Shown in pieces: positions 9,251 through 45,184 of a stretch of DNA of 64,000 nucleotides. The position numbers and the translations under genes are program-made. The DNA lies in the NCBI GenBank assembly GCA_017480545.1, contig JAFVAI010000012.1, forward strand, positions 5,452-69,451, in the 5' to 3' direction. The notes under the pieces are model-generated. The model ran no database searches. It had not been told where the DNA came from and saw only the letters and a program-made list of their open reading frames with translations. Position 1 is the stretch's first letter; every line of letters begins with the position of its first letter. Source of the stretch: Schwartzia sp. (in: firmicutes). Lineage in GTDB: Bacteria > Bacillota > Negativicutes > Selenomonadales > Selenomonadaceae.

Positions 9251-9290
9251 TTTCCTAAAAGAGTAGAGAGTGAAGCGATTGCATGATATA

Positions 9291-9470
9291 ATGTGTCCGC
9301 TTGGCGAGCGCGACGCGCGAGCCTAGCGGCACATATCCACTGTGTGGATAATGTGTCCGCTTGGCGAGCGCGACGCGCGAGCTTAGCGGCACATATCCAC
9401 TGTGTGGGTAATGTGTCCGCTTGGCGAGCGCGACGCGCGAGCTTAGCGGCACATATCCACCGTGTGGATC
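9291..9470. repeat. Three head-to-tail 60-bp repeats, each with internal palindromes
   Basis: Units at 9291-9350, 9351-9410 and 9411-9470 differ by 1-2 substitutions. Each has TATCCAC-TGT-GTGGATA and ATGTG(T)CCGC...GCGGCACAT inverted repeats. The array is enclosed by AGAGTGAAGC (about 9268) / GCTTCACTCT (about 9481) followed by a T-run. Confidence 0.9.
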
Positions 9471-9507
9471 ATGTGCGTAGCTTCACTCTTTTTTTGGAGG
9501 TGCGGAC

Positions 9508-12160: not shown

Positions 12161-12964
12161 ATGGCAAACACAATCGGCTCACATTACGCTACGTATCAAA
12201 AGACGATGGGGCAGGTCGGCGGCGCCAAGCGGCCCGCAGGCAAGAAGGCCGCCGAGGACGGGAAAAAGCCTTTCGGGGGCTTCGGCGACGACTTCGGCGT
12301 CCAGCTTTCCGAGGAAGGACTCGCCGCGCTGGCGGCCCAGCGGAAGCAGGAGACGGAGAACGAGGAAAACGGCGAGACGAGCCTCATCAGCGAAGACAAA
12401 CTCTCCGACAAGGCGAAAGATTTTCTCGCGAAGCTCCGCGAGAAGTACGGCGACAAATATGACTTCTTCGCCGTCAGCAGCATCGAAGACCCGCGCGCGA
12501 GAGAACTGACGGGCACGAAAGCTTATTCGGTGCTCCTGACCAACGACGAGATCGAGAAAATGGCCAACGACGAGGAATACGCGGAAGAGGTCATGCAGAA
12601 GGTGGAGTCCGCCGTCGATATGACGAAACGGATTCAGGAAAAGGGCGAGCTGGGCGACGGCGTGCAGTTCAAGCACATTTCCATTTCCTTTGACAGCGAT
12701 GGCAATATGAAGCTGTTCGCCGAGCTGGAGAAGATGTCCGACCAGCAGCGGGAGCGCATGGAAAAACTCAAGGAAAAACGCGCCGAGGAAAAGGAGGAGG
12801 CCGAGCGGGCCAAGGACAAAGACGACGGGGAGGACGGCCCCGGCGCCAAACGCGTCCGTCTCGAAGCGACGTCCGAGGAAGAGCTGCTGGAAAAGATTCT
12901 GGGCATCGACTGGGACAAAATCCCGGCTGCGGGGGAAAAGAAAGCGGAAGAAGACGGGGAATAG
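12161..12964 (+). CDS. Hypothetical acidic/Lys-rich protein
   Basis: 267-aa ORF with an AGGAGG RBS. No domain recognised with confidence. Confidence 0.6.
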   Translation: MANTIGSHYATYQKTMGQVGGAKRPAGKKAAEDGKKPFGGFGDDFGVQLSEEGLAALAAQRKQETENEENGETSLISEDKLSDKAKDFLAKLREKYGDKYDFFAVSSIEDPRARELTGTKAYSVLLTNDEIEKMANDEEYAEEVMQKVESAVDMTKRIQEKGELGDGVQFKHISISFDSDGNMKLFAELEKMSDQQRERMEKLKEKRAEEKEEAERAKDKDDGEDGPGAKRVRLEATSEEELLEKILGIDWDKIPAAGEKKAEEDGE

Positions 12965-12972
12965 CACACAAT

Positions 12973-13014
12973 AAAAAAAGTTGAGGCAAGAACTTCTTGC
13001 CTCAACTTTTTTTA
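12973..13014. terminator. Bidirectional rho-independent terminator
   Basis: AAAAAAAGTTGAGGCAAGAACTTCTTGCCTCAACTTTTTTT between convergent genes. Confidence 0.85.
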
Positions 13015-24814: not shown

Positions 24815-25013
24815 CTTCTGCTACTCCTGTCAATAGTTGAAGTTAATTCCTATTATAAGCATTTTTCGCCAACAATTCCACTTTTTCGCAAAAAAACCTT
24901 CCCCGAAACGCCGCTTCCGCAAAACCTCCCATGGGCGCCAGGGACGAAGCGGTTCCAAAAATTGCCGGGCACCGAAATTGTCTCCCCGTCATTCCAACGT
25001 TTCGGGCCTTTGC

Positions 25014-25051
25014 AAATTTTTGAGGTAAGAATTTCTTACTTCAAAAATTTT
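25014..25051 (+). repeat. Copy 2 of the 38-bp AT-rich palindrome
   Basis: AAATTTTTGAGGTAAGAATTTCTTACTTCAAAAATTTT. Lies in a divergent intergenic region (GGDEF gene to the left, metH to the right), so a terminator role is unlikely here. Confidence 0.8.
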
Positions 25052-25245
25052 CGCAGGCGAAACGCGGAGCTTCACGGCCCATGGAAACAGCCTGTCCCTT
25101 TCATCCCCATCCCCGGAACCATTCGGGATGCGGGCACGAAAAATCCATGCACGGCGGCGCCGTTTTCATATCGGTGCTTCCCTAATTCCCCCCGCCGTGA
25201 TACAATATTTCATGAGAAGAAATACGCAAAAAGGAGCAAGACAGT

Positions 25246-28850: not shown

Positions 28851-28903
28851 GCGCCTGCTTTGCAGGCTACAGCCGCGCTAAAGCGCGTCTGACGTCTCAT
28901 GCA
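28851..28903 (+). repeat. 53-bp element X (two short hairpins plus tail). An inverted copy lies at 43508-43560.
   Basis: GCGCCTGCTTTGCAGGCTACAGCCGCGCTAAAGCGCGTCTGACGTCTCATGCA. Its reverse complement matches 43508-43560 at about 50 of 53 positions. Confidence 0.85.
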
Positions 28904-35117: not shown

Positions 35118-35492
35118 ATGCCCCAAACGGAGAATACCGCGACGCCGGGCCTGCCGATCAATCCGTCCGTAAAGCAGTAGGCGGAGCAAATATTGCCGAA
35201 TCTCGGCATTCCTTTGGCGACCGCGATTGACATTTATCTCCGGCAAATTGCAATCGCCGGAGGCATTCCGTTTTCTATTCGCGTGGCTCCCGTACCGGAT
35301 ACGATAAACGCCGATAGGATGAGCGCAGACGAAATCAACCAGTCGCTTGAAGCCGGGGATCGGGACGCCATATCCGCCACACAAGGGATGCGGAAATCAT
35401 GGCGGCGCAGGGATAAATTCTTTTATAACGCAAGGGGCGCGGCGGTTTTGCCATGCCCCATTCCTTGCTTTTTATGCTTTCCTGCTTTATGA
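35118..35492 (+). pseudogene. RelB/DinJ-family antitoxin remnant interrupted by an in-frame TAG (35178-35180). No partner toxin gene.
   Basis: INPSVKQ-stop-AEQILPNLGIPLATAIDIYLRQIAIAGGIPFSI matches the DinJ/RelB ribbon-helix-helix core. The reading frame then runs through a hairpin and the next cassette promoter, so the native 3-prime end is lost. Confidence 0.5.
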
Positions 35493-35493
35493 T
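35465..35493 (+). promoter_or_regulatory. Promoter of AbrB-PIN cassette 1 (TTGCTT-17-TATGAT) with flanking inverted repeat
   Basis: Hexamers read directly. The same arrangement is conserved at 40352-40380. CTTG...CAAG inverted repeats bracket the -10 (candidate operator). Confidence 0.55.
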
Positions 35494-35526
35494 ATACATA
35501 CAAGAATGAAGAGGGGGGTGTTCTCC

Positions 35527-35862
35527 ATGTTGGCGGAAATCATGGGCAGCGGGCAAATCGCTTTGCCGCCTGCCCTTATGAATCAACTGGAATGGAAAAT
35601 CGGGGACAAATTAAACATGATTGTGGAAAATGGCGAACTGCGCTTGCGCGGCGCCGAAAAGCCCGCGAAAAAAGAGTTTTTTTATATCGACAATGAAAAC
35701 GAGACGAATCCCGCCCTTCTGGCTTTGGAAGAATTAGCGCAAGCCTGCAAGGGTGCAGCCGAAGAGGCAGGTTTCAAAAACGAGGAAGAGGCACACCGAT
35801 ATATAAAAGAAGTGATTCGTCCGCAAGTGTGGGAGAAATACAATGCTGCGCGTAATGCTTGA
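35527..35862 (+). CDS. AbrB/MazE/SpoVT-type antitoxin
   Basis: GQIALPPALMNQLEWKIGDKLNMIVENGELRL swapped-hairpin motif. Overlaps the downstream PIN gene by 20 nt. Confidence 0.75.
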   Translation: MLAEIMGSGQIALPPALMNQLEWKIGDKLNMIVENGELRLRGAEKPAKKEFFYIDNENETNPALLALEELAQACKGAAEEAGFKNEEEAHRYIKEVIRPQVWEKYNAARNA

Positions 35863-36250
35863 CACCAACATATTGGTGTCAATGGCATTTTATCCCGCTC
35901 CAACAGTGAGCCGATTCTTTGGCGTACTCCATGCCGATCATAAAGCCGTGCTTTGTGAATATGTCATAGACGAGTTTCGGCGGATTGCACAACAAAAATT
36001 TCATGTTCACGATTCTGTCATTGAAACATTTCTGCACAAATTCCCCTATGAATTTGTGGCAACTTCTCAACCGGATGGATCTCTTGCCCTTCCGAAAATC
36101 CTCGATGAAAATGACGCACCGATTCTCGCCACAGCCATTCTGGAAGATGTGGACATCCTCGTAACAGGCGACAAGGATTTCTTGGTGCTTGACCTTCCAA
36201 AGCCGAAAATTATGACCATGGCAGAATTTATTGAAGCGTTTGCATCTTAA
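35843..36250 (+). CDS. PIN-domain toxin
   Basis: MLDTNILVS, DENDAPILATAI, LVTGDKDF acidic residues of the PIN fold. Confidence 0.85.
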   Translation: MLRVMLDTNILVSMAFYPAPTVSRFFGVLHADHKAVLCEYVIDEFRRIAQQKFHVHDSVIETFLHKFPYEFVATSQPDGSLALPKILDENDAPILATAILEDVDILVTGDKDFLVLDLPKPKIMTMAEFIEAFAS

Positions 36251-36288
36251 TAATGATTAGCAAAAGAAAGGGGCATGGCGGTTTCTCC

Positions 36289-36536: not shown

Positions 36537-37150
36537 ATGTCCATCACCAAAAAAGAAGCGCTTACAATCTTGTCGCGATGCGCGAAGATTTATGACGAAC
36601 AGCTTCGGAACAAAAACCTGTTGTTCTTGCTTATGGACAAGCAGCAGACAGTACACAGTCTTGAAACCATTTTCCTGTCCAGGAATTTCAAACACCTCAC
36701 CGGATTAGCCAGTCCGTTAGGCGCAAATAGATTCTTTGAGAAAATCCTTGCGCGTCAGCTTGGGCTGAATGAGTTTGACTTCAAAGACGATGGAACAACT
36801 GAATTGAAGCTGAAGATTCTGCCCACCTTGATGAGCAAAAATCTTTCCGCGAACATGGCCGGAAATTTCGCAGGGAAAACCGCAAAACTATATATACCGA
36901 GAAAATTGCCGGAAGATTAAACGGGAGTATGGGATTTGTTTTTGATGAAAATGCAAAGCGGTACGTTCCCAATACGGTACTGCATGAGGATATGAGGGAT
37001 ATGGTTTCCGTATTGTACCGTGTTGTTGCGACTTATCGCAAAAATATTAAGGATATTCAATATTCTGAGGTTGTTTATGCCGCAAAGCAAGTAGACTTCG
37101 ATTCTCTTGTTTTTCCGGCTGAAATTGCATATTTGCAAAGGTTGATATAA
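36537..37150 (+). pseudogene. Hypothetical nuclease-like gene split by a frameshift (127-aa ORF 36537-36920 plus 73-aa ORF 36929-37150)
   Basis: The second frame is open back to about 36860 (…YTEKIAGRLNGSMGFVFDENAKRYVPNTVL), so the two ORFs read as one about 200-aa protein. The FKHLTGL motif resembles phage Barnase/EndoU/RelE-like (PBECR-type) families, from memory only. Confidence 0.45.
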
Positions 37151-37434: not shown

Positions 37435-38604
37435 TCAACTGAAAATGGACGAGAACAGGTTTTTGACGCCGTTCACAATGCTGCGGCCTACGGACTTGAC
37501 GCCTTCCCATGCGCGCTTCAGGACTGGCTTCGCGACTTCCGCGATTTTGTGGACGGCTTTTCCGATGGCTTTTCCGATGGTGGAACCGCCGATTCGTCCG
37601 ACGACGCCGCCGACGAAATTGCCTACCGCCATTCCAACCGGCATCAAAACGGGCATCACAGAGCCGACCATCATGCCGAGCGCTTGGCCTGCCTTTTTCC
37701 CTAACTGCTCGCCAAGATGTCCGCATACATTGGAAGCCTGCACCGTAGCGACACGCCCCATGAGATTCAAGGCTTGACCGCCGCTAATGTCGCCATCCGC
37801 GAACTGCATCACGATTTTTGCCTGTTCCACACCCGCACAGGCAAGGCCGGATACAATCGCAGCAGGGGTGCTTTTCGGCAGGAAGGGAATATATCCTTTC
37901 TCTATGCCGGCTTTGAGCGCTGCGGACGCCGCTTCCTTTACCCCCTGATCCTCGCCGCTTCTGAGAGCGTCCCCGACCTTCTTCAAATTTTGGACGTTTT
38001 CCCCCAAGGGGATGTTTTCCGCCATCTTCCAACCCGTGCGCAGGACTGTACTGGCAAGGCTTGATACCTCGACCTCTTTGCCGAGCTGCAAGGCGAGTTC
38101 ATGGGTGTTTGCCGCGTCCCATTCCTGCTCGCCATTTTCCTCAAAATCGGAAGGCTGCTCCCGTGTGCCTTCAATCGCTTCTTGGTTGGCTTGATGCAGC
38201 TCCGTATTTGCTTCAGCGAGATATGTTCCGTAATCCGATACATTGACGCCGATCGTAGATTCTTGCAGCTTTCCTTCCAGCCATTCCTCTTTCGATTTTC
38301 CCTCGGCGCAAGCCTCATGGATAGAAGCCATGTCCGCGTCCCATGCGGCGACGCTCGTGTGAATCTCTTTTCGTATGGCCTGGATTTCTTCCTCTGACCG
38401 TTCCGGCAGTTCGTCTTTCAGCGGAGCGTCCAGCCAGGCAGATTCATCGTCCTGCTCTGATTCTTCATAGGCTTTCATGAATCGCCCCATAATCGGGGCC
38501 AGCCGCTCGGCTGTTTTTTCATCAAACCCTTTGACGGAATCGGCAGTACCCTCGGAAATATCTTTGTATTCCTCTTCCGGTGCGGTATGTCGGTCGTTTG
38601 TCAT
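37435..38604 (-). CDS. Hypothetical protein with an acidic N-terminal region and a C-terminal glycine-zipper / amphipathic segment
   Basis: GMMVGSVMPVLMPVGMAVGNFVGGVVGRIGGSTIGKAIGKAV near the C-terminus. GAGGTGAG RBS. Confidence 0.65.
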   Translation of the reverse strand: MTNDRHTAPEEEYKDISEGTADSVKGFDEKTAERLAPIMGRFMKAYEESEQDDESAWLDAPLKDELPERSEEEIQAIRKEIHTSVAAWDADMASIHEACAEGKSKEEWLEGKLQESTIGVNVSDYGTYLAEANTELHQANQEAIEGTREQPSDFEENGEQEWDAANTHELALQLGKEVEVSSLASTVLRTGWKMAENIPLGENVQNLKKVGDALRSGEDQGVKEAASAALKAGIEKGYIPFLPKSTPAAIVSGLACAGVEQAKIVMQFADGDISGGQALNLMGRVATVQASNVCGHLGEQLGKKAGQALGMMVGSVMPVLMPVGMAVGNFVGGVVGRIGGSTIGKAIGKAVHKIAEVAKPVLKRAWEGVKSVGRSIVNGVKNLFSSIFS

Positions 38605-38616
38605 TTCGTTCTCACC

Positions 38617-38784
38617 TCACGCTTTCGACGCCTTGATTTTTCCCTGCCCATATTCCACCATGTACCGCTTTTTGCAGTGCGAGCAAGTTCCTCTCGTGCG
38701 GCTGATGCTCGATGTGTCCACATTATACGGGCCGAGCTTCTTTTGCTTGCAATGGGGGCAAGATACATATTTTGACAATGCCAT
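38617..38784 (-). CDS. 55-aa zinc-ribbon protein (absent from the ORF track)
   Basis: Hand translation: MALSKYVSCPHCKQKKLGPYNVDTSSISRTRGTCSHCKKRYMVEYGQGKIKASKA. GGAGGG RBS. Sits 16 nt after the AAA+ stop and 12 nt before the next start. Confidence 0.6.
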   Translation of the reverse strand: MALSKYVSCPHCKQKKLGPYNVDTSSISRTRGTCSHCKKRYMVEYGQGKIKASKA

Positions 38785-38800
38785 AGCCGTTTCCCTCCGA

Positions 38801-40327
38801 TCAGCTTATAGAGGCGTTCTTGAAATGACGCTCCTGATAGACCTTGGCCATCTTCTCGATGGACTCCTTCATGATCTCCGACAGCGACGCCGTGCTGCGG
38901 ATCGCCGAGAGCAAAAGCTCCGTCGTCAATTTGGGCTTGTCTTGTGTGAACGCCGCTTCGATGGCGTCCTTTACCACGCCTTCAATATCCGAGCCGCTGT
39001 ATCCGTTTGTTTCCTTCACCAGCGCCGAGAGGTCGATGCCCGCGAGGTCTTTCTTTCTGCGCTTGCCGATATGAATGGAGAAAATCTTTTCCCTTTCTTG
39101 GGGATTCGGCAATCCGACATAGAAAATCTCGTCAAAACGCCCTTTCCGCAGAAGCTCCGGCGGCAAATGCTCGATGTTGTTCGCCGTAGCCACCACAAAG
39201 GCCAGTCCTTCCTTCTCCTGCATCCATGTCAGGAACGTGCCGAAAAGCCGTGTCGTCACCTCATGGCCGCCGCCTCCGCTGCTGATCCCCGCGAAGGCTT
39301 TTTCCAACTCGTCAATCCAGAGCACGCAAGGAGAAATAGCCTCCGCCAAAGCAATCGCCTGTCGAAGATTCGCTTCCGATTCGCCGACGTATTTTCCCAT
39401 CAGCCGTCCCATGTCGAGCCGGAGCAGAGGCACTTCAAAGAGCGCGGCGGCGGCTTTCGCGTTCAGCGATTTCCCGCAGCCGGGCAGTCCCGCAATCAAT
39501 ACGCCCTTCGGCAAGTCCACGCCGAAGGCTTCGGCCTTGTCGATGTTCTTCAAAACCTTTGCCTTTTGCTTCAGCCATGCTTTGAGATTTTCCAGACCGC
39601 CGATGTCCTCGATGCGCTCTTTCAGCGGCACCATTTCCATGATGCCCGATTTCTGCACAAGCTGTTTCTTTTGCTCGTGGCTCAGCGCGAGGTCGGCGCG
39701 CCCGATTTCCCCGTTGTCCGCCAACGCCAGCGAAAGGATATTGATAATCTCGAATTCCGGCAAGCCTTTGAAGGCAAGGGCCAGTTCCCGCAGAAAATCT
39801 TCATGCAGCGCGTCCAAGCCTTGCTCTTCGCAGAAGCGGACGATAATTTTTCGGATTTCCTCTGCCGAGAGGTAATCAACCGTCAGAATCGTGATGTAAT
39901 GCTCCAACTCCTTCGGGATGCACGTCCTCGGAGCGATAATCACGATATTCGCGTCCGTGAGCTGTCCCGACACGATGCGCTCGGACAGATATTTGAGCTG
40001 TGCCACCACGTCCGGCGCCTCCAAGAACTGCTGCGCGTCCTTCAAGACCAGCACCCGACGCCGAAGATCATAACGCGCCGCAAACTTTTCGCTGCCTGTC
40101 TGGTTCGGGTTGGCGAAATTTCCCAATGCTTCGGGGAGCGTAACGCCGTCCACTTTTTCCTTCGATTGTTTGAAGAGCAATCCGCGCACGTTCCACTCGA
40201 CGACCTCGCGGTTTCCCGCCGCTTCCTCGATGGCGCGGTCGGCCTTGTCCTCCTCAAAGGTTGCGATGTAGAGAATCGGGAAGCCTGCATCCATATAGAG
40301 CGTCATGCGCTCCGATAGTGGTTTCAT
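38801..40327 (-). CDS. Classical-clade AAA+ ATPase with an unassigned N-terminal domain of about 240 aa
   Basis: Walker A GLPGCGKS, Walker B VLWIDELE, ATANN, PPELLRKGRFD. The ATG at 40327 follows AGGAGG (the track ORF extends to 40540 without support). Confidence 0.9.
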   Translation of the reverse strand: MKPLSERMTLYMDAGFPILYIATFEEDKADRAIEEAAGNREVVEWNVRGLLFKQSKEKVDGVTLPEALGNFANPNQTGSEKFAARYDLRRRVLVLKDAQQFLEAPDVVAQLKYLSERIVSGQLTDANIVIIAPRTCIPKELEHYITILTVDYLSAEEIRKIIVRFCEEQGLDALHEDFLRELALAFKGLPEFEIINILSLALADNGEIGRADLALSHEQKKQLVQKSGIMEMVPLKERIEDIGGLENLKAWLKQKAKVLKNIDKAEAFGVDLPKGVLIAGLPGCGKSLNAKAAAALFEVPLLRLDMGRLMGKYVGESEANLRQAIALAEAISPCVLWIDELEKAFAGISSGGGGHEVTTRLFGTFLTWMQEKEGLAFVVATANNIEHLPPELLRKGRFDEIFYVGLPNPQEREKIFSIHIGKRRKKDLAGIDLSALVKETNGYSGSDIEGVVKDAIEAAFTQDKPKLTTELLLSAIRSTASLSEIMKESIEKMAKVYQERHFKNASIS

Positions 40328-40351
40328 AAAGCTATACCTCCTTTTTGATGA

Positions 40352-40380
40352 TTGCTTTTTCGGCGTTCTTGCTTTATGAT
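40352..40380 (+). promoter_or_regulatory. Promoter of AbrB-PIN cassette 2 (TTGCTT-17-TATGAT)
   Basis: Conserved with 35465-35493. Lies in the 85-bp divergent region shared with the AAA+ operon. Confidence 0.55.
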
Positions 40381-40412
40381 ATACATACAAGAACGAAACG
40401 GGGGTGTTCTCC

Positions 40413-40724
40413 ATGTTTGCGGAAGTCATGGACAATGGACAGATTGCTTTGCCGCTCTCCCTTATGAACCAACTGGAATGGAAATCCGGGGATAAACTGG
40501 ATATGGTCTTGGAAAATGGGGAACTGCGCTTGCGTGGCATCGAAAAGCCTAAGGAAAAGGAATTTTTTTACATGAAAGACGAGAACGAAACAGATTCTGT
40601 TCTTCTGGCATTTGAGAACTTGGCGCAAGCATGCAAAGGGGCTGCCGAAGAAGCGGGATTCAAGAATGAAGAAGAACTGCAAGCATATTTAAGTTCATTT
40701 CGCAGGAAGGTACGGGAGGGCTGA
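40413..40724 (+). CDS. AbrB/MazE/SpoVT-type antitoxin, paralogue
   Basis: GQIALPLSLMNQLEWKSGDKLDMVLENGELRL. Start chosen by alignment to the 35527 paralogue. Confidence 0.75.
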   Translation: MFAEVMDNGQIALPLSLMNQLEWKSGDKLDMVLENGELRLRGIEKPKEKEFFYMKDENETDSVLLAFENLAQACKGAAEEAGFKNEEELQAYLSSFRRKVREG

Positions 40725-40726
40725 CA

Positions 40727-41134
40727 TTGCGCGTTCTGCTTGATACCAACATTCTAATCTCGGCGGCTATATTCCCTTCGCCGGTCACCAAAGATTTTTT
40801 GTGGCAGCTTCGTGCCTTGAATGCAAAAATCTTTCTGTGCAACCATATCGTAAAAGAGTTTGTGGACGTGTACCAGGAGAAATTTCCCCATAAACAGGTT
40901 GCCGCGCAACGTTTTCTAAAAGAATTACCCTATCACATGATTCCTGCCTCAGAGCTACAGACCAATGATTCGGTTTCTTCAATCCGCGACGTCAATGACG
41001 CGCCTATCCTCACTGCGGCAATAAAAGGAAACGTGGACATCCTTGTAACGGGAGATAAAGATTTCTTGGTGCTTGACCTTCCGAAGCCGAAAATTATGAC
41101 CATGGCAGAATTTATTGCTACATACGATTCTTGA
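40727..41134 (+). CDS. PIN-domain toxin, paralogue
   Basis: LLDTNILIS, VNDAPILTAAI, LVTGDKDF. TTG start after GGGAGGG. The 3-prime end is nearly identical to the 35843-36250 gene. Confidence 0.85.
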   Translation: MRVLLDTNILISAAIFPSPVTKDFLWQLRALNAKIFLCNHIVKEFVDVYQEKFPHKQVAAQRFLKELPYHMIPASELQTNDSVSSIRDVNDAPILTAAIKGNVDILVTGDKDFLVLDLPKPKIMTMAEFIATYDS

Positions 41135-41148
41135 AGCTGATTTCATCC

Positions 41149-41186
41149 AAAGCGGCGGCACGGCACTTTTGCCGTGCCGCCGTTTT
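41149..41186. terminator. Bidirectional terminator AAAGCGGCGGCACGGCACTTTTGCCGTGCCGCCGTTTT
   Basis: GC-rich stem between convergent genes. Confidence 0.8.
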
Positions 41187-41196
41187 AGAGTACTTT

Positions 41197-42363
41197 TTAT
41201 TTTTTCTTTTTGGAGAAAAGAGCTTTCATATTTTTAAGACAGTTACTTATGCAAATTGCGGTCGTTCTAGTGCCAAGCATATTCGTATATGCTATCGCAT
41301 TTCCTGTTCCTTCACTTGGCCAGTTGAAGCAGTAAGTATTATCCAATAACGCAGACTCATACGCAGTGATAATTGCATCGTCATGTTCAAAATCCCTAAT
41401 GCAAAAACTATCTTTCGTAAAAGCCCAACCAGTCGTCATATTTTCTGAGATACGGAGCTGAAGTAAATCTTCTTCCGCATATTTGTCATCGCAAATCAAG
41501 CTCAATGCCAACGCCTTTTGCTCTTGAGTAAATTTCGTACTGGTTACCTCCCCGCCCCTGGGCCAAGCTATCATCAAAAATGTGTCATTTGCGTCTACTC
41601 CCAGCATTTCCAAATCATCTTTGAAGGTTGACGCGAACATCGCTTTCATCTGCGTTTTTGGCACTACCCACATTGTTCCTGATGAACTTTCCTGTGCATC
41701 CATCGATGCCCCGCAACTATTGCAAAATTTCGCCCCCGCCGCATTATCCGCGCCGCACTTCGGGCAAGGTTTCGTCTCCTCGTTCTTGACCGTTTCTTTC
41801 TTGCCCCACGGCAGTCTCACATTCTCAAACACAATCCCTTTCGCGTCCAAATCTTCCTGCGAGTTCGCCTTGATGCTGATGGTCGGCGTGCCGAGAACGC
41901 CAATATATTTCTTATTCTTCACCCGCGCAGGGATATTGAAGCTGTCGCCGCAGAGATAAATTACCGGCTCGTCCATATCGAGCAAATCCGCCAAATCCTC
42001 CTGCGTCAAGGCCGTCTTGTCGGCGTTGGCGATGATTGCCTCATCGCTCGTTTTCTGCCGCAGGACGGCTTTTTTCTCGTTCAGGCGCTCCAATGCGCCC
42101 ACGTCCAAATCCTCATCGCCCGCGCACTCCACGCCCAATGCCTCACACAGACGCGCTCGCAGGTCGGGCGCGTCCTTGTCGATAGCGTCCAACGCTTCCG
42201 CTTCATCTTCATAATAACGGTCTTCCAGCCACTCCGTCAGCTTGCCCGACAGGAAATAGCCCACAGCTTTTTCGAGGTCGAAGTTCTCGCGCAGCTCATC
42301 CAAGCTGTTCCGTACCTTCGCGCCATCTTTCATTTCCAATGCGAATTTGATTTTTCGTGCCAT
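41197..42363 (-). CDS. Hypothetical protein with a central double zinc ribbon
   Basis: CPKCGADNAAGAKFCNSCG flanked by an N-terminal helical domain and an unassigned C-terminal domain of about 160 aa. Confidence 0.65.
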   Translation of the reverse strand: MARKIKFALEMKDGAKVRNSLDELRENFDLEKAVGYFLSGKLTEWLEDRYYEDEAEALDAIDKDAPDLRARLCEALGVECAGDEDLDVGALERLNEKKAVLRQKTSDEAIIANADKTALTQEDLADLLDMDEPVIYLCGDSFNIPARVKNKKYIGVLGTPTISIKANSQEDLDAKGIVFENVRLPWGKKETVKNEETKPCPKCGADNAAGAKFCNSCGASMDAQESSSGTMWVVPKTQMKAMFASTFKDDLEMLGVDANDTFLMIAWPRGGEVTSTKFTQEQKALALSLICDDKYAEEDLLQLRISENMTTGWAFTKDSFCIRDFEHDDAIITAYESALLDNTYCFNWPSEGTGNAIAYTNMLGTRTTAICISNCLKNMKALFSKKKK

Positions 42364-42391
42364 AGTTGTTTCCTCCTATTCGTTTATACAT

Positions 42392-42721
42392 TTATCCTTC
42401 ATACCCTTTCGGATATTTGACATACAGACCGTACCGCTCCTGCGGGATTTTGGCGTTCATAATGTACGCGCGGGTTTCCGCAAGGCTTCTTTGCAGCCGC
42501 AAAAGCTCCTCTTTGGATTGCCGCACCTTTTGGGCTTTCTTCGGATCGTCCAGCCATTTCAGCGCCGTTTCCACAGGGTCGATGAGCTTGTAGAGGTCTT
42601 CAATCAAGTAAACCTTGTCGTCGGTTGAGGTGATGGCCTCCGCTTCGGCCCGGATGATGTCGATGTCCTTCTGCGATATGGTTTTGCAGGGTTCTTCGTC
42701 CCCGAAAATGCTCCAGCTCAT
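42392..42721 (-). CDS. Hypothetical protein (109 aa)
   Basis: The ATG at 42721 follows AAGGGGGA. The ORF ends 28 nt before the downstream zinc-ribbon gene starts. Confidence 0.55.
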   Translation of the reverse strand: MSWSIFGDEEPCKTISQKDIDIIRAEAEAITSTDDKVYLIEDLYKLIDPVETALKWLDDPKKAQKVRQSKEELLRLQRSLAETRAYIMNAKIPQERYGLYVKYPKGYEG

Positions 42722-42822
42722 CGTGTTTCCCCCTTTCATCATCGAGTATACAAAATGGGTTCGTCAGATTCTGACGAAGTGAAAATAAAATTGAAAAAAC
42801 GCCGAAAATTTTTTCTCAGCGT

Positions 42823-43437
42823 TCATAAAAGCGTAAAAGATCGAATTGCGGACAGCGGGTATTCCTGCGGAATCTCGCTGCCTGTAGCGGCCTGCAAAGC
42901 AATCCGCCCATCGGCAAAGGAAAGACGCAGAGGCAGAGTGTCCCTGCCCGATTCATCGTCTTCCATGAACAATCGAATCTTTTGCTGTCGGTTAATGACA
43001 AGGTTCAAGTCCCAAATCATTTTCAGCAGGGAAGGAGCAGCGGGGAGAGAGCCGCTTTCTTTGCTCATCCGAAAAACGGTCTTTTGCAAATGGCCGCGCT
43101 CGTCTGCCGGAAGATTTGTCAAAAGCCCCTGTAATATCGAAGCGACGTCGCTTTCGCCAAAGGCGTGGCTTTCAAAAAGCAACAGCATCAAGGGCAGGAT
43201 GTTCATGCCGCGCAGCTTTTCATTTTTAATGCCGGACAGATAATAGCTGCGGTCAGTCGCATCGTAAAGAAGTTCATGGGGCGCAAAGGTTTCCGAGAGC
43301 ATAAGCCGCACGGATTCGATATAGCGGTCAAAGGAGCGGCGTCCAACGGAAAACTCGTCCATGAACAGGCGTTTCGTGACTCTCTCGCCGCGAAGCAGAC
43401 GATGGTAAAGAATCAGAACTCGATCCGCCTTGTTCAA
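42823..43437 (-). CDS. HTH plus WYL-like domain transcriptional regulator
   Basis: N-terminal wHTH (RVLILYHRLLRGERVTKRLFMDEFSVGRRSFDRYI). C-terminal segment PLRLSFADGRIALQA...YPLSAIRSF resembles a WYL domain. Confidence 0.6.
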   Translation of the reverse strand: MNKADRVLILYHRLLRGERVTKRLFMDEFSVGRRSFDRYIESVRLMLSETFAPHELLYDATDRSYYLSGIKNEKLRGMNILPLMLLLFESHAFGESDVASILQGLLTNLPADERGHLQKTVFRMSKESGSLPAAPSLLKMIWDLNLVINRQQKIRLFMEDDESGRDTLPLRLSFADGRIALQAATGSEIPQEYPLSAIRSFTLL

Positions 43438-43507
43438 GGTGTGCGCCTCCTTTCATCGTTTTTCCTATACTACTCGCCGTTAAAAAGTGGAGCTTTTTTA
43501 CGGCGAG

Positions 43508-43560
43508 TGCATGAGATTGTCAGACGCGCTTTAGCGCGGCTGTAGCCTGCGAAGCAGGCG
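43508..43560 (-). repeat. Inverted copy of the 53-bp element X
   Basis: TGCATGAGATTGTCAGACGCGCTTTAGCGCGGCTGTAGCCTGCGAAGCAGGCG is the reverse complement of 28851-28903, with 1 indel and 2 substitutions. Confidence 0.85.
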
Positions 43561-43602
43561 TAAATCTTCGCTTGAATGTCTACATTTAAGCGAAGATTAG
43601 TA

Positions 43603-43926
43603 TTAAAAGCGACGATTCACGACCCAGCTATGCGGGCCGCCGTTTGTTTTGCGTGGGCAACGTCCCGGTTCCGGTCGTCCGCGGCTTTGTGAAAGCATCT
43701 TTTTCTGTCCGCAAAAGCGGCACATATACTCAATCATCTTTGAAGGCGCAGACTTCACGCCGCTTGTTGCCGCTTTCCAGCGGCGATTTACAGACCAACT
43801 GTGCGGGCCTCCGCTCTTTCGCGGATTTCGCGGGCAATGCCCCGGCTCCGGTCGTCCGCGGCTTTGGAAGGACATCTGCTTTTTCCCGCAGAAACGGCAC
43901 ATATATTCAATGCTGTCCGAGGCCAT
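43603..43926 (-). CDS. Internally duplicated zinc-ribbon miniprotein (two modules of about 50 aa)
   Basis: Two copies of IEYMCRFCGxKxMxxQSRGRPEPGxCPRxxxxGGPHSWxVNRR. The start is uncertain (ATG at 43926 or GTG at 43935). Confidence 0.55.
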   Translation of the reverse strand: MASDSIEYMCRFCGKKQMSFQSRGRPEPGHCPRNPRKSGGPHSWSVNRRWKAATSGVKSAPSKMIEYMCRFCGQKKMLSQSRGRPEPGRCPRKTNGGPHSWVVNRRF

Positions 43927-43954
43927 AAGAATCACCAGCGTTTCTTTATGAGTA

Positions 43955-44159
43955 TATATAGTTTCTGTTTGATAATTGCTAAATCACCTTGCCCTCCCCT
44001 TGAGGGGAGGGTGGCGCCCGTAGGGCGACGGGTGAGGTGGAAACGAAATGTTTCGCTTTCGTTCATCGTTGCGTTTAACACCTCATCCGTCAGCCGTTGG
44101 CTGACACCTTCCCCTCAAGGGGAAGGCAAGATTAGCGAATTTTAATCATAAACTATATA
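43955..44159. mobile_element. MITE-like element (about 205 bp) with imperfect terminal inverted repeats of about 55 bp
   Basis: TATATAGTTTCTGTTTGATAATTGCTAAATCACCTTGCCCTCCCCTTGAGGGGAGGGTG pairs with CACCTTCCCCTCAAGGGGAAGGCAAGATTAGCGAATTTTAATCATAAACTATATA. Each arm contains its own hairpin. No coding capacity. Confidence 0.5.
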
Positions 44160-44235: not shown

Positions 44236-44499
44236 CTATCTACCTGTCAATATCCTTCTTGAACGACTATCCAAAGGTGAACCGTCCATGGGATTAAGGC
44301 CACGTTCAATGAGTACATCTTCCATGATTAAACTTCTGACGCTCCCTAACATTTCCTTGCCGTGTAATCTAACCAGCTTTGCCGAAGACAGTTCTTCATA
44401 TTGTTCTTTAATGTCAAATACATCTTCTCTTGACAATTTTTTCCCATCGTCATCATAGTCTGGAAACATATACGGATCTGAAACCCATCGTCTGCTCAT
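44236..44499 (-). CDS. Hypothetical protein (87 aa), gene 5 of the AT-rich operon
   Basis: AAGGA RBS. Starts 15 nt after the upstream stop. Confidence 0.55.
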   Translation of the reverse strand: MSRRWVSDPYMFPDYDDDGKKLSREDVFDIKEQYEELSSAKLVRLHGKEMLGSVRSLIMEDVLIERGLNPMDGSPLDSRSRRILTGR

Positions 44500-44514
44500 A
44501 ATAACACATCCTTT

Positions 44515-44808
44515 TCATTTATTATTTTTTAGGTTCTCCTTAAAAGAATTAATTTTATCCAACATCATTTTTGAATCAGTCAAATATTCTTTTTTCATCC
44601 CTTCTTTTATCGATTCTTCTCTCTCATCAACCACCTCGTGAAATTTTTTTAAATTATCGCTTATTTCCTGTCGCTTAATCTTTTCTTCAATAAACACCTT
44701 TGACAAATATTCCTGGTCACGTTTTATCTGAGCGTTAAGTTCATCTTGCTCATTCTGTTTTTGCCCGTCAGCTGCAACAGTAGAATCTTTTCTTTTGGCA
44801 TCATTCAT
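44515..44808 (-). CDS. Hypothetical coiled-coil protein (97 aa), gene 4
   Basis: The ATG at 44808 lies 1 nt after the stop of gene 3, with GAGGT upstream. K/E-rich heptad-like sequence. Confidence 0.55.
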   Translation of the reverse strand: MNDAKRKDSTVAADGQKQNEQDELNAQIKRDQEYLSKVFIEEKIKRQEISDNLKKFHEVVDEREESIKEGMKKEYLTDSKMMLDKINSFKENLKNNK

Positions 44809-44809
44809 A

Positions 44810-45184
44810 TCAATACCTCGATGTTTTTCCGGCGTCATTAACTTTCTCTGCTAATTCTACGCCCTTCCCAGAATATAACTTATGTGCTTCCATATACAAC
44901 GATAATACATGCTTGAATAAGTCTTTATCGGATTTTATGCTTTGATCCTTCATCAACTCATTCAAGGTGTTAAGCGCGTTCATTGCAAGTTCGTGGTTAT
45001 CTGATAAGATAACATTCAATGCGTCATAGTTTTTTTCGATAACGGTCAATGCTGCATCTAAACGAGCAGCAATTTCTGCCCGTTTCGTTTTTTCTTGTTC
45101 GCGACACGCCAGATATTGAGCGCCAGCACTGACGGCTTCCTTGACAACCGGTGCCACTGCTGTAACTACCGCTACTGGTACCAT
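44810..45184 (-). CDS. Hypothetical helical protein with a hydrophobic N-terminus (124 aa), gene 3
   Basis: MVPVAVVTAVAPVV N-terminus. TAATG stop/start overlap with gene 2. Confidence 0.55.
   Translation of the reverse strand: MVPVAVVTAVAPVVKEAVSAGAQYLACREQEKTKRAEIAARLDAALTVIEKNYDALNVILSDNHELAMNALNTLNELMKDQSIKSDKDLFKHVLSLYMEAHKLYSGKGVELAEKVNDAGKTSRY

What the first reader, a model, noticed from the sequence alone, without database searches (positions are those of the whole stretch)
41197..43437. HTH-WYL-like regulator leading two unknown genes (109 aa, and 388 aa with a double zinc ribbon)
A 204-aa wHTH plus WYL-like protein heads a co-directional set with a 109-aa protein and a 388-aa protein. 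The 388-aa protein combines an N-terminal helical domain, a CPKCG...CNSCG zinc ribbon and an unassigned C-terminal domain of about 160 aa. WYL-domain regulators (the BrxR/CapW type) are established markers placed upstream of diverse anti-phage systems. Here the cargo has no recognisable effector domain. The 53-bp element X copy lies immediately upstream of the regulator.
Basis: partly seen in the sequence, partly recalled or inferred. Interest (0 to 1): 0.68.

Follow-up and report, generated by a model that had tools for sequence, protein, structure and literature searches.

The report
WYL-regulated AAA+ cassette with swappable-tail proteins
The three genes are real, but they are only the front end of a larger, undescribed gene cassette, widespread in gut and rumen Firmicutes, that pairs a protein-unfolding ATPase and a membrane-inserting protein with a family of proteins sharing one conserved head and many different tails; it is probably a stress- or phage-response system, though nobody has tested it.

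Summary
Three co-directional minus-strand genes (204, 109 and 388 aa) lie exactly at 41197-43437, and the repeat copy lies upstream. One correction: the zinc ribbon is single (4 Cys), not double.

The 204-aa protein is a short, divergent HTH-WYL regulator without a WCX domain. The unit, however, is not three genes. In relatives the cassette reads: small Zn-ribbon protein, WYL regulator, 109-aa protein, one to three or more paralogues of the 388-aa family, a 508-aa AAA+ ATPase, a 55-aa Zn-ribbon protein, and a 389-aa all-helical protein with a glycine-zipper tail. All of these are present in the window (37435-43935). Here an AbrB/PIN toxin-antitoxin pair has inserted between the 388-aa gene and the ATPase.

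Only the first ~185 residues of the 388-aa protein (the NTD) are conserved. This head defines about 1,100 clusters at 50% identity. It is linked to the ATPase and the glycine-zipper gene across Bacillota. Its tails include Sel1, LRR, TPR, RCC1, WD40, HPr, FliN, LigA-like and L7/L12 domains.

No database or paper I could search describes the cassette. My best reading (about 0.45) is a conflict or stress system: variable adaptor, unfoldase and membrane effector under WYL control. An export or targeting machine remains a live rival.

The parts
43603..43935 (-). 110-aa small protein made of two tandem CxxC...C zinc-ribbon repeats (Zn110). In relatives it is the first gene of the cassette.
   Evidence: ORF. 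Weak zinc-ribbon family hits. Internal 86-nt duplication (D7). Found directly upstream of the WYL gene, or next to the ATPase, in L001, L002, L022, L027, L046, L078-L080, L085 and L087.
43438..43602 (-). Intergenic region carrying a ~133-nt insertion. It contains a hairpin, the 'element X' repeat core (43519-43573) and a second 8-bp-arm hairpin. The RBS and TTG start of the regulator follow.
   Evidence: The repeat is 98% complementary to 28852-28893. The insertion is absent in L001 and L002, where the Zn110 stop and the regulator start are about 33 nt apart. The repeat was not found in any of the 75 related loci held at that point.
42823..43437 (-). 204-aa wHTH plus divergent WYL-domain transcription regulator. 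It has no WCX domain.
   Evidence: PADLOC WYL E=1.5e-8. No Pfam hit for the window copy itself. 11 of 16 homologues hit PF13280 WYL, 2 hit HTH_11 and 1 hits WCX. The family profile hits BrxR 7qfz at E=0.0015, plus other WYL structures. The alignment shows the FYLxG...LDxI motif degenerated to IALQA...LSAI in the window copy.
42743..42822 (-). Intergenic control region. It has a terminator-like hairpin just after the regulator's stop codon (42824-42797), the conserved palindrome TTCGTCAGAATCTGACGAA (42778-42760), a TGTATACT extended -10 and an RBS. This is the probable operator and promoter of the downstream operon.
   Evidence: Hairpins. The palindrome core CGTCAGAAT-TGACGAA, the -10 and the RBS are conserved (only the centre base of the palindrome and one -10 base vary) in the window, L001, L002 and L004, although the regulators are only 62-74% identical. 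Operator function is inferred.
42392..42721 (-). 109-aa protein of unknown function, with conserved motifs QKDIDIIRAEAE and YGLYVKYPKGYEG. It is an accessory gene of the Selenomonadaceae version of the cassette.
   Evidence: No family hits. Every relative at 40% identity or more whose contig extends downstream directly precedes an NTD gene. A distant W109-like domain forms the C-terminus of 435-446-aa proteins in phage-like contigs.
41806..42363 (-). Residues 1-186 of the 388-aa protein: the family-defining N-terminal domain (NTD). It has a near-invariant N-terminal peptide MA(K/R)KIKF.LEM.
   Evidence: Alignments. NTD identity is 93-98% in close homologues, against 14-71% for the tail. There are 1,101 clusters at 50% identity with E<1e-30, and the match almost always starts at residue 1. 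No Pfam, NCBIfam, PHROG, PDB or BFVD match.
41704..41775 (-). Residues 197-220 of the 388-aa protein: a single 4-Cys zinc ribbon. It is an optional module.
   Evidence: PF13240 E=2.4e-7. The Cys residues are present in about 27 of 98 homologues.
41197..41670 (-). Residues 232-388 of the 388-aa protein plus the stop codon: the variable C-terminal domain. Here it is a beta-sandwich capped by a long helix (PH-like).
   Evidence: AlphaFold2 model. Only weak Foldseek hits to PH domains (Avo1, Sin1; TM about 0.45; E about 1). In relatives this domain is replaced by Sel1, LRR_5, DUF6273, TPR, RCC1, WD40, HPr, FliN, LigA-like, biotinyl or L7/L12 domains.
40404..41134 (+). AbrB/MazE-like antitoxin (40404-40724) and PIN toxin (40727-41134), with their promoter at 40352-40404. 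This toxin-antitoxin pair is inserted, convergently, between the 388-aa gene and the ATPase.
   Evidence: PIN_3 E=1.3e-15 and MazE_antitoxin E=0.0014. A paralogous copy lies at 35465-36258 (76-87% nt identity). The pair is absent at this position in L001-L004; L005 has an AbrB fragment there.
38801..40327 (-). 508-aa classic-clade AAA+ ATPase. The N-terminal half (1-225) is unassigned. The active C-terminal module carries Walker A GLPGCGKS, pore loop KYVGESE, Walker B LWIDELE and Arg fingers RKGRFD.
   Evidence: PF00004 E=1e-28 plus AAA_lid_3. Best PDB matches are p97/Cdc48 D2 at E about 1e-60. phrog_8638 E=2e-120. 94-97% identical in L001-L005, and adjacent to NTD genes in about 40 loci. The motifs are conserved in at least 90% of 36 homologues.
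38617..38784 (-). 55-aa basic 4-Cys zinc-ribbon protein lying between the ATPase and the 389-aa gene.
   Evidence: ORF. Weak zinc-ribbon hits. Syntenic homologues at 62-98% identity in Selenomonadaceae loci.
37435..38604 (-). 389-aa acidic all-alpha protein. It ends in a glycine-zipper hydrophobic hairpin (about 306-340) followed by a basic amphipathic helix. It is the candidate membrane effector or anchor.
   Evidence: AlphaFold2 model with pLDDT 82 and pTM 0.84, all helical. Hydropathy. The C-terminal motif is conserved in most of the 38 homologues from the loci. It lies next to the ATPase in about 40 loci. No significant fold match. The C-terminus resembles tape-measure glycine-rich segments (phrog_11489 E=3e-8).

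Best explanation
SHOWN. The three genes are the head of a conserved cassette: [Zn110] - WYL regulator - 109 - NTD-X protein(s) - AAA+ ATPase - 55-aa Zn ribbon - 389-aa glycine-zipper helical protein. The core that recurs across Bacillota is NTD-X + AAA+ + glycine-zipper protein. It is often preceded by a WYL regulator of the same family.

NTD-X proteins have a strongly conserved ~185-residue head that always sits at the N-terminus. Their tail is swapped between paralogues and species.

INFERRED (mechanism).
1. The WYL protein binds the conserved palindrome between its own gene and the 109-aa gene. It keeps the operon repressed until a stress or infection ligand is sensed.
2. The NTD-X proteins act as interchangeable adaptors or baits. 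The tail is either a repeat scaffold or a copy of a host protein domain, and it engages an invader-derived or stress-derived cue.
3. The conserved head, with its near-invariant N-terminal peptide, docks the protein on the hexameric AAA+ unfoldase.
4. ATP-driven remodelling then releases or activates the 389-aa protein. Its glycine-zipper hairpin inserts into the membrane and arrests or kills the cell, giving an abortive-infection-type outcome.

The 109-aa, 55-aa and Zn110 proteins are lineage-specific accessories of unknown role.
For: Cassette synteny.

Linkage: about 40 of 75 loci carry NTD, ATPase and 389-like genes side by side, in either gene order, from Selenomonadaceae to Bacillus, Ruminococcus and Lachnospiraceae. 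The minimal four-gene form WYL-NTD(218 aa)-AAA-389-like is seen in L070 and L072-L074.

Regulator: WYL identity. Conserved palindrome and promoter.

ATPase: intact pore loop and catalytic motifs and p97-like similarity.

389-aa protein: conserved glycine-zipper plus amphipathic C-terminus and a helical bundle.

Mosaic evolution: head 93-98% identical against tail 14-71%. Tails are repeat scaffolds or host-protein-like domains, as in sensors of known immune NTPases.

Context: the window locus sits in a lower-GC variable region with two toxin-antitoxin pairs, a PBECR4 nuclease and RelE/HTH genes. Flanks of other loci include XRE regulators, PD-T4-6-like kinases, Macro and RtcB.

Literature: a SpoVK/Cdc48-like ATPase next to a C-terminal glycine-zipper protein was noted inside CoCoNuT defence operons and proposed to be a stand-alone defensive cassette (PMC11090510).
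Against: There are no experimental data at all. No component matches a validated defence family apart from generic AAA similarity to IetA, and the IetS partner is absent.

Flanking genes are largely housekeeping, and defence enrichment is weak.

Many NTD genes are 'orphans' in conserved housekeeping neighbourhoods, for example PlsY-NTD-XpaC/TM2-TelA-PBP and Rex-hydrolase-NTD-RNase R. Several occur per genome. That pattern fits clients of a cellular machine better than a compact immune operon.

No nuclease, protease or NADase effector is present. The 389-aa protein has only one hydrophobic hairpin and no significant similarity to known pore formers.

None of the proposed physical interactions (NTD with ATPase, ATPase with the 389-aa protein) was tested.

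In the window, the toxin-antitoxin insertion may uncouple transcription of the two halves.
Confidence: 0.45

Rival explanations
1. Dedicated export or membrane-targeting pathway. The NTD is a trafficking domain that marks diverse cargo proteins. The AAA+ ATPase unfolds them or hands them over. The glycine-zipper protein forms the membrane conduit or docking site. The logic parallels T7SS LXG or PE/PPE substrates with EccA-type ATPases.
For: The conserved domain is always at the extreme N-terminus and the C-termini are polymorphic. There are tandem paralogues plus several dispersed orphan copies per genome. Frequent tails (BspA-type LRR_5, DUF6273, Sel1, RCC1) are common, from my own knowledge, in surface or secreted proteins of gut Firmicutes. 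The pore-loop-bearing unfoldase is adjacent to a membrane-inserting protein. Small unknown genes sometimes follow NTD genes, as immunity or chaperone genes do.
Against: Other tails are typical cytosolic domains: HPr, LigA-like, L7/L12, FliN, biotinyl and rubredoxin. No recognisable toxin domains were found. The 389-aa protein has a single hydrophobic hairpin and a large acidic soluble body. Control by a WYL regulator is unusual for secretion systems. The cassette occurs in both diderm Selenomonadaceae and monoderm Bacilli with no outer-membrane component.
Confidence: 0.2
2. Housekeeping or stress proteostasis module. NTD-X proteins are substrate adaptors, or are themselves regulated clients, of a membrane-tethered AAA+ remodelling machine. 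The 389-aa protein is its membrane anchor. The module would be linked to envelope-stress systems and would not be an immune system.
For: Orphan NTD genes occupy conserved housekeeping positions next to XpaC/TM2-TelA, PBP, Rex and RNase R. NTD fusions to HPr and FliN suggest regulation of normal cell processes. The ATPase is very highly conserved (94-97%), unlike typical fast-evolving defence genes. Flanks are mostly housekeeping.
Against: Tail swapping at near-identical heads is extreme. Copy number of NTD genes in the cassette varies between close relatives, from 1 to 4. Distribution across Bacillota is patchy, and the window locus lies in a lower-GC island with toxin-antitoxin genes. A WYL regulator is present. 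No partner protease is present.
Confidence: 0.15
3. One reading: a self-contained three-gene, BrxR/CapW-type WYL-led defence operon in which the 109-aa and 388-aa proteins are the complete cargo.
For: WYL regulator at the head. The 204, 109 and 388 genes are syntenic in close relatives.
Against: In every relative whose contig extends far enough, the ATPase, 55-aa and 389-aa genes follow. Across phyla the NTD co-occurs with the ATPase and the 389-like gene, not with the 109-aa gene. In the window these genes are separated from the 388-aa gene only by an inserted toxin-antitoxin pair.
Confidence: 0.04
4. Domesticated or resident phage-derived module, such as a prophage-encoded superinfection-exclusion or lysis-timing device, rather than a chromosomal immune system.
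For: The ATPase matches a phage protein family over its full length (phrog_8638, E=2e-120) and phage AAA-ATPases at 32-36% identity. The tail of the 389-aa protein resembles tape-measure glycine-rich segments. A W109-like domain occurs in phage-like regions next to DUF1353 and a head-tail joining protein. L002 carries excisionase-type HTH_17 and XRE genes upstream.
Against: The NTD has no match in 50,697 phage genomes or 72,556 plasmids, and no structural match in BFVD. The cassettes are not embedded in recognisable prophages. The neighbours of the phage ATPases are uninformative.
Confidence: 0.1

Closest known systems
BrxR / CapW / PafBC-type HTH-WYL-WCX regulators of defence and DNA-damage operons
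   Same: N-terminal wHTH followed by a WYL domain. The gene sits at the head of, and co-directional with, the operon it presumably controls. A conserved palindrome lies in the promoter region. A family profile aligns to the WYL domain of BrxR 7qfz.
   Different: At 204 aa it is much shorter, with no WCX dimerisation domain. The WYL motif is degenerate, so the window copy fails the Pfam threshold. The ligand and DNA binding are untested. The regulated operon is not a known defence system.
SpoVK/Cdc48-like AAA+ ATPase plus C-terminal glycine-zipper protein module noted inside Type III-A CoCoNuT operons (Bell et al., eLife 2024, PMC11090510)
   Same: A classic-clade p97-like ATPase whose only recognisable active module is C-terminal is encoded next to a protein ending in a bacteriocin-like glycine zipper. 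LRR and biotin-carrier-like domains appear in the same system. The authors proposed it to be a stand-alone defensive cassette.
   Different: There the extra domains are fused to the ATPase and the module is flanked by vWA genes. The glycine-zipper protein is reported to have an inactivated PD-(D/E)xK fold, whereas here it is predicted to be all-helical. No NTD-X family or WYL regulator is mentioned. Sequence homology between the two modules could not be tested because no sequences were at hand.
IetAS (Gao_Iet) anti-phage system
   Same: The ATPase shows AAA-domain similarity to IetA (PADLOC E=1e-24; NCBIfam IteA 84.9 bits).
   Different: The score is far below the family cut-off (510 bits). 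Similarity is no better than to PAN, Cdc48 or FtsH. No IetS serine protease is present.
STAND/NLR-like immune NTPases (Avs, bNACHT) and the NTP-dependent conflict systems of Kaur et al. 2020 (PMC7159879)
   Same: The logic matches: an oligomeric NTPase, hypervariable repeat-type sensor domains (TPR, Sel1, LRR, WD40) and a membrane-acting effector.
   Different: The NTPase is a classic AAA+ unfoldase, not a STAND or MoxR protein. The variable domains are on separate polypeptides joined to the system by a dedicated N-terminal domain. No vWA or effector-associated domains were detected.
Polymorphic secretion substrates (T7SS LXG, PE/PPE) with accessory AAA+ ATPase EccA
   Same: A conserved N-terminal domain with a polymorphic C-terminus, tandem and dispersed paralogues, and an associated AAA+ ATPase.
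   Different: There is no FtsK/EssC translocase, no WXG100 partner and no recognisable toxin or immunity pair. Many tails are cytosolic housekeeping-type domains.

Membership tests
HTH-WYL-WCX regulators (BrxR/CapW/PafBC type) | N-terminal winged-helix DNA-binding domain | tested here: inconclusive
   The PADLOC WYL model (full-length regulator profile) aligns from residue 2. HTH_11 is detected in only 2 of 16 homologues and not in the window copy. The conserved N-terminal RVLxLYxxL...G...K motif fits a wHTH. No structure was predicted for this protein.
HTH-WYL-WCX regulators (BrxR/CapW/PafBC type) | WYL domain (SH3-like beta-barrel, ligand sensor) | tested here: met
   PADLOC WYL E=1.5e-8. 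11 of 16 syntenic homologues hit PF13280. The family profile hits the WYL regions of 7qfz, 9pfq, 8tp8, 7p5x, 9cu3 and 7u02. The window copy is itself sub-threshold in Pfam, and its motif is degenerate.
HTH-WYL-WCX regulators (BrxR/CapW/PafBC type) | C-terminal WCX extension domain | tested here: not met
   The protein ends a few residues after the WYL domain. Only the 323-324-aa homologues L030 and L031 carry the extension, and only 1 of 16 hits PF25583.
HTH-WYL-WCX regulators (BrxR/CapW/PafBC type) | Represses an adjacent defence operon through an operator; de-repressed on infection or DNA damage | not testable with these tools
   Only a conserved palindrome and promoter were found between the regulator and the 109-aa gene.
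IetAS (Gao_Iet) | IetA-family ATPase reaching the family threshold | tested here: not met
   NCBIfam IteA_antiphage scores 84.9 bits against a cut-off of 510. The hits to PAN and Cdc48 are stronger.
IetAS (Gao_Iet) | Adjacent IetS subtilisin-like protease | tested here: not met
   No protease domain in any cassette gene.
CoCoNuT-associated SpoVK-like ATPase + glycine-zipper module | p97/Cdc48-like ATPase with tandem ATPase domains, only the C-terminal one active | tested here: inconclusive
   The C-terminal AAA module is active-looking. The N-half (1-225) has a beta-alpha-beta-like sequence pattern but no detectable similarity to the C-half (hhalign probability 0.8%).
CoCoNuT-associated SpoVK-like ATPase + glycine-zipper module | [quoted passage not shown] | tested here: met
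   A conserved GGxxGGxxGYxAGSxxG hairpin followed by an amphipathic helix, in most of the 38 homologues.
CoCoNuT-associated SpoVK-like ATPase + glycine-zipper module | Body of the glycine-zipper protein has an inactivated PD-(D/E)xK fold; module flanked by vWA (TerY-like) genes within a McrBC-type operon | tested here: not met
   The AlphaFold2 model is entirely alpha-helical. No vWA or McrB/C domains were found in the cassette or the window neighbours scanned.
Type II toxin-antitoxin (AbrB/MazE-fold antitoxin + PIN toxin) - the inserted pair only | Small antitoxin gene immediately upstream of, and overlapping or abutting, a PIN-domain toxin gene | tested here: met
   40404-40724 matches MazE_antitoxin at E=0.0014. 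40727-41134 matches PIN_3 at E=1.3e-15. A second copy lies at 35465-36258.
Polymorphic toxin / T7SS-like substrates | C-terminal toxin domain with a cognate immunity gene, and a dedicated translocase (EssC/FtsK) | tested here: not met
   No toxin families among the tails of the 74 loci-derived NTD proteins scanned, and no FtsK-type ATPase in the loci.

The most novel reading that the evidence does not exclude
The cassette is a previously unrecognised class of bacterial immune system built on a Cdc48-like unfoldase. A dedicated N-terminal docking domain plugs interchangeable sensor modules into the ATPase. These modules include 'integrated decoys' copied from host proteins that phages target (HPr, NAD-dependent ligase, L7/L12, FliN, biotinyl carrier). 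The ATPase then unleashes a new type of helical, glycine-zipper membrane effector. This would be a bacterial counterpart of the plant NLR integrated-decoy strategy, run by an AAA+ unfoldase instead of a STAND NTPase.
Probability: 0.25. Interest if true: 0.88.

Novelty: new variant of a known kind. Interest (0 to 1): 0.7.

Why it matters
If the reading is right, this adds a widespread cassette to the list of candidate conflict systems. It spans about 1,100 sequence clusters, mainly in gut and rumen Bacillota, and no Pfam, NCBIfam or PADLOC model covers three of its core proteins.

It would be an unusual design. The sensor modules are separate, freely exchangeable polypeptides that share one docking head. 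The engine is a protein unfoldase rather than a nuclease or a STAND switch.

The host-protein-like tails would give a direct handle on which host proteins phages of anaerobic Firmicutes attack.

Even if it proves to be an export or proteostasis machine, it defines a new N-terminal targeting domain and a new partner pair (AAA+ ATPase plus helical glycine-zipper protein). Both are experimentally tractable in Bacillus relatives.

It also warns annotators that a WYL-led 'orphan' gene set can be the visible half of an operon split by a toxin-antitoxin insertion.

Tried and rejected
- **Family scans.** Pfam, NCBIfam, PHROGs and PADLOC scans of the 204, 109, 388, 55 and 389-aa proteins gave nothing beyond zinc ribbons, the PADLOC WYL hit and generic glycine-rich matches.
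- **PDB by sequence.** The 388-aa protein matched only on its zinc ribbon. The single 204-aa sequence gave nothing meaningful.
- **Fold searches.** The 388-aa model had no match at E<0.001 against PDB or BFVD. The 389-aa model had no significant match against PDB. The ClyA-family pore-former hits (E 0.4-1, TM about 0.1-0.16) are too weak to use.
- **Rfam.** No hits on the whole window. No tRNA genes.
- **Phages and plasmids.** The NTD had no tblastn match in either collection. The neighbourhoods of the phage AAA-ATPase homologues were uninformative.
- **Shared docking domain.** Profile-profile tests between NTD, tail, W389, W204, W109 and the ATPase halves were all negative. The ATPase N-half against its C-half was also negative.
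- **IetAS membership.** Rejected.
- **Identity with the CoCoNuT glycine-zipper protein.** Not supported, because the predicted fold differs.
- **Element X as a conserved regulatory site or mobile-element boundary.** Rejected as intrinsic: it is absent from relatives. Whether the two inverted copies delimit a 14.6-kb mobile unit was not resolved.
- **Literature.** Five full-text searches found no description of the cassette.
- **Defence-island enrichment.** Pfam and PADLOC profiles of 116 flanking genes gave only weak signals.

Full report
**1. Observation**

The minus strand carries three consecutive ORFs exactly at the reported coordinates:
- 42823-43437: 204 aa, TTG start.
- 42392-42742: mechanical ORF of 116 aa. 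The conserved ATG at 42721 with RBS GAAAGGGGG gives 109 aa.
- 41197-42363: 388 aa.

The TTG start and RBS of the first gene are conserved in relatives. All three are real genes. The 388-aa protein has 309 homologues in the large protein collection. The other two have syntenic homologues at 62-96% identity in independent contigs.

An AlphaFold2 model of the 388-aa protein (98-sequence alignment, mean pLDDT 89) shows three parts:
- a helical region plus a small beta unit (residues 1-186);
- a zinc ribbon (197-220);
- a beta-rich domain capped by a long helix (232-388).

The ribbon is a single 4-Cys ribbon, not a double one. It is optional, with the Cys present in about 27 of 98 homologues.

The repeat upstream of the regulator is real. 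Positions 43519-43560 are 98% complementary to 28852-28893, with none expected by chance.

**2. The regulator**

The window copy has no Pfam hit. It does match PADLOC's WYL regulator model at E=1.5e-8 over residues 2-183.

I assembled sixteen syntenic homologues from related loci.
- Eleven reach Pfam WYL, two reach HTH_11 and one reaches WCX.
- Their profile aligns to the WYL region of BrxR (7qfz, E=0.0015) and of several other solved WYL proteins.

The alignment shows the usual FYLxG...LDxI signature, decayed to IALQA...LSAI in the window protein. The protein stops right after this domain, so it has no WCX. It is therefore a short, divergent HTH-WYL protein. I did not predict its structure.

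Between its stop codon and the 109-aa gene lie four features:
- a terminator-like hairpin;
- the palindrome TTCGTCAGAATCTGACGAA;
- an extended -10 (TGTATACT);
- an RBS.

Apart from the terminator-like hairpin, which L001 lacks, these features are conserved with only single-base differences in four loci whose regulators are only 62-74% identical. I infer that this region is the operator and promoter of the downstream genes.

**3. The unit is larger than three genes**

I looked up contigs encoding close homologues of the 388-aa protein. They show a fixed order:
- small duplicated zinc-ribbon protein;
- 204-aa protein;
- 109-aa protein;
- one to three 388-family paralogues, sometimes with small unknown genes between them;
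- 508-aa AAA ATPase;
- 55-aa zinc-ribbon protein;
- 389/390-aa protein.

Every one of these is present in the window:

| Gene | Window coordinates |
|---|---|
| Zn110 | 43603-43935 |
| ATPase | 38801-40327 (the 579-aa mechanical ORF overshoots the conserved start) |
| 55-aa protein | 38617-38784 |
| 389-aa protein | 37435-38604 |

Identities to relatives are 94-97% for the ATPase, 73-87% for the 389-aa protein and 75-98% for the 55-aa protein.

In the window, the 388-aa gene and the ATPase are separated by a convergent AbrB/MazE-PIN toxin-antitoxin pair (40404-41134). A paralogue of this pair lies at 35465-36258. L001-L004 lack the pair at this position.

The ~133-nt stretch containing element X is likewise an insertion. 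In L001 and L002 the Zn110 stop and the regulator start are about 33 nt apart. The repeat occurs in none of the 75 related loci held at that point.

**4. What is conserved more widely**

A scan of one genome per species returned 71 loci. They come from Selenomonadaceae, Anaerovibrio, Megamonas, Ruminococcus, Oscillospiraceae, Lachnospiraceae, Clostridium, Bacillus and Neobacillus, with single hits labelled Alistipes, Synergistales and Desulfovibrio.

Only residues 1-185 of the 388-aa protein (the NTD) are conserved across them.
- In about 40 of the 75 loci held, the NTD gene or genes lie next to homologues of the ATPase (50-97% identity) and the 389-aa protein. The order is either [WYL]-NTD-AAA-389 or AAA-389-NTD(s).
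- Fifteen loci have a regulator of the same WYL family at the head.
- The 109 and 55-aa genes are restricted mainly to the Selenomonadaceae/Anaerovibrio versions.
- Relatives of the 109-aa protein at 40% identity or more directly precede an NTD gene wherever the contig extends downstream.
- The smallest cassettes have four genes, with an NTD-only protein of about 218 aa.

A profile search of 1.84 billion representative proteins found 1,101 clusters at E<1e-30. The match almost always begins at residue 1.

**5. The tails**

Among close homologues the head is 93-98% identical while the tail falls to 14-71%. This is a mosaic pattern of tail replacement.

Pfam scans of the 74 NTD proteins from the loci gave these tails:
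- Sel1 (8 proteins), BspA-type LRR_5 (6), DUF6273 (5), zinc ribbons, PTS-HPr (4);
- TPR, RCC1 and WD40;
- FliN C-terminal domain, biotinyl/lipoyl, rubredoxin, L7/L12 C-terminal domain;
- a LigA-like adenylation + OB + HhH module.

BLAST with reference sequences written from memory confirmed the HPr, FliN, L7/L12 and biotinyl fusions.

The window protein's tail is PH-like at best (Foldseek TM about 0.45, E about 1). Neither the head nor the whole protein has a significant match in PDB or BFVD, or in phage or plasmid genomes.

**6. The partners**

*ATPase.* It is a classic-clade AAA+ protein. Walker A (GLPGCGKS), pore loop 1 (KYVGESE), Walker B (LWIDELE) and the Arg fingers (RKGRFD) are conserved in at least 90% of 36 homologues. 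Its closest solved relatives are the D2 rings of p97/Cdc48 (E about 1e-60). It has every sequence hallmark of a substrate-threading unfoldase.
- Its N-terminal 225 residues are unassigned and show no detectable similarity to the active half.
- Over its full length it matches phrog_8638 (E=2e-120), and phage 'AAA-ATPase' genes at 32-36% identity. The neighbours of those phage genes are uninformative.

*389-aa protein.* It is acidic and predicted all-helical (pLDDT 82, pTM 0.84). It ends in a glycine-zipper hydrophobic hairpin followed by a basic amphipathic helix (IPxVGPxxGGxxGGxxGYxAGSKxG ... AKKV..KAWEGVKSVGRSI). This motif is conserved in most of the 38 homologues. No significant structural neighbour was found.

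*Shared domains.* Profile-profile comparison detects no domain shared between any two components.

**7. Context**

The window locus lies in a 28-50 kb stretch of lower GC (37-58% against about 60% in the flanks). That stretch also holds carboxylesterase, DUF4127 and GDSL genes, two AbrB-PIN pairs, a PBECR4 nuclease and HTH/RelE genes.

I scanned 116 genes flanking 29 complete cassettes.
- The commonest family is XRE-type HTH (10 genes).
- A few genes are defence-like: PD-T4-6-like kinases, Macro, RtcB and PD-(D/E)xK.
- The rest are ordinary metabolic genes.

Enrichment is therefore weak.

Many Selenomonadaceae genomes also carry 'orphan' NTD genes in conserved housekeeping positions:
- PlsY - NTD - XpaC/TM2 - TelA - PBP;
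- Wzy - Rex - hydrolase - NTD - RNase R.

Several orphans can occur per genome. Some of them are the HPr and FliN fusions.

**8. Interpretation**

Shown:
- the cassette architecture;
- the linkage of NTD, ATPase and glycine-zipper protein;
- the WYL-family regulator;
- the mosaic tails.

Inferred: a WYL-controlled system in which NTD-X proteins serve as exchangeable adaptors or baits for an unfoldase. The output is membrane insertion of the glycine-zipper protein.

For a conflict role:
- WYL control and tail diversification;
- repeat-type and host-like tails;
- the island context in the window;
- a published passing note that a SpoVK/Cdc48-like ATPase with an adjacent glycine-zipper protein is integrated in CoCoNuT defence operons and may be a stand-alone defensive cassette (PMC11090510).

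That module differs from this one. Its glycine-zipper protein has a PD-(D/E)xK body, it is flanked by vWA genes, and its extra domains are fused to the ATPase. I could not test homology.

Against a conflict role:
- the orphans in housekeeping positions;
- the weak defence-island signal;
- the lack of any enzymatic effector;
- the absence of experiments.

The main rival is an export or targeting pathway for NTD-tagged proteins. A membrane-tethered proteostasis module and a phage-derived module are further options.

**9. Novelty**

No model in Pfam, NCBIfam, PHROGs or PADLOC (2023) covers the NTD, the 109-aa protein or the body of the 389-aa protein. Five full-text literature searches found no description of the cassette.

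I class it as a new variant of a known kind: NTPase-centred, regulator-led multigene conflict or stress cassettes. There is a minority chance that it is a new class of unfoldase-based immunity using integrated decoys.

Noticed in passing
window 35465-36258 and 40352-41142: Two paralogous AbrB/MazE-PIN toxin-antitoxin cassettes, including their promoters (76-87% nt identity), lie 4.9 kb apart. One is inserted between the 388-aa gene and the ATPase. The other lies downstream of the cassette, next to a PBECR4 nuclease gene (36537-36920).
   Followed up: partly
window 28852-28893 and 43519-43560: The two copies of the ~42-62-nt 'element X' are in inverted orientation 14.6 kb apart. Between them lie the carboxylesterase/DUF4127/GDSL genes and the whole cassette except Zn110. 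Whether they mark a mobile unit or are simply REP-like intergenic repeats is unresolved.
   Followed up: partly
window 43970-44150: A ~165-nt near-perfect long hairpin (52-nt arms with nested palindromes) lies between the low-GC gene cluster and Zn110. The RNA fold is -93.8 kcal/mol (z = -10 against shuffles). There is no Rfam match. It may be a MITE-like element or a strong terminator.
   Followed up: partly
window 44236-46379: A 37% GC cluster of five small minus-strand genes (286, 109, 124, 107 and 87 aa). Most look helical or coiled-coil, two have a hydrophobic segment, and none has a family hit. The cluster is absent from relatives of the cassette. The 87-aa protein resembles the C-terminal 53 residues of a 512-aa NTD protein in L001 (40% identity), so tail modules may also exist as free-standing genes.
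   Followed up: partly
L014, L020, L021, L024 (around 10 kb); L050, L051, L060: In other Selenomonadaceae, single NTD genes with different tails (FliN, HPr, PH-like) occupy the same conserved slot. One slot is between plsY and an XpaC/TM2-TelA pair. Another is between a Rex-hydrolase pair and RNase R. This hints at a link between the NTD family and TelA-type envelope-stress genes.
   Followed up: partly
L090-L097 (e.g. L094 6041-7348): A domain related to the 109-aa protein (HMM E about 1e-15) forms the C-terminus of 435-446-aa proteins. These lie in 27-31% GC contigs next to DUF1353 and a phage head-tail joining protein, which suggests a phage origin for this small protein.
   Followed up: partly
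window 43649-43911: The Zn110 gene is an internal tandem duplication (86-nt units, 79% identical) that encodes two copies of a CxxC...RGRPEPG.CPR...GGPHSW motif. The protein travels with the cassette in many Selenomonadaceae loci but has no assigned family.
   Followed up: partly
window 9289-9475: Three tandem copies of a 60-nt-period repeat (96-97% identical) that contains the palindrome GCGAGCGCGACGCGCGAGC. Not examined.
   Followed up: no
window 7441-7491, 12964-13014, 25003-25053, 50832-50882: Four copies, in both orientations, of a ~50-nt hairpin element (TTTTGAGGTAAGAATTTCTTACCTCAAAA). It is probably a terminator or REP-like repeat family of this genome.
   Followed up: no
window 46422-47572: HTH_3 and RelE-like genes, with a duplicated 94-nt segment (46536-46629 against 47374-47467, 86% identity). 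This points to further toxin-antitoxin or addiction modules at the edge of the lower-GC region.
   Followed up: no
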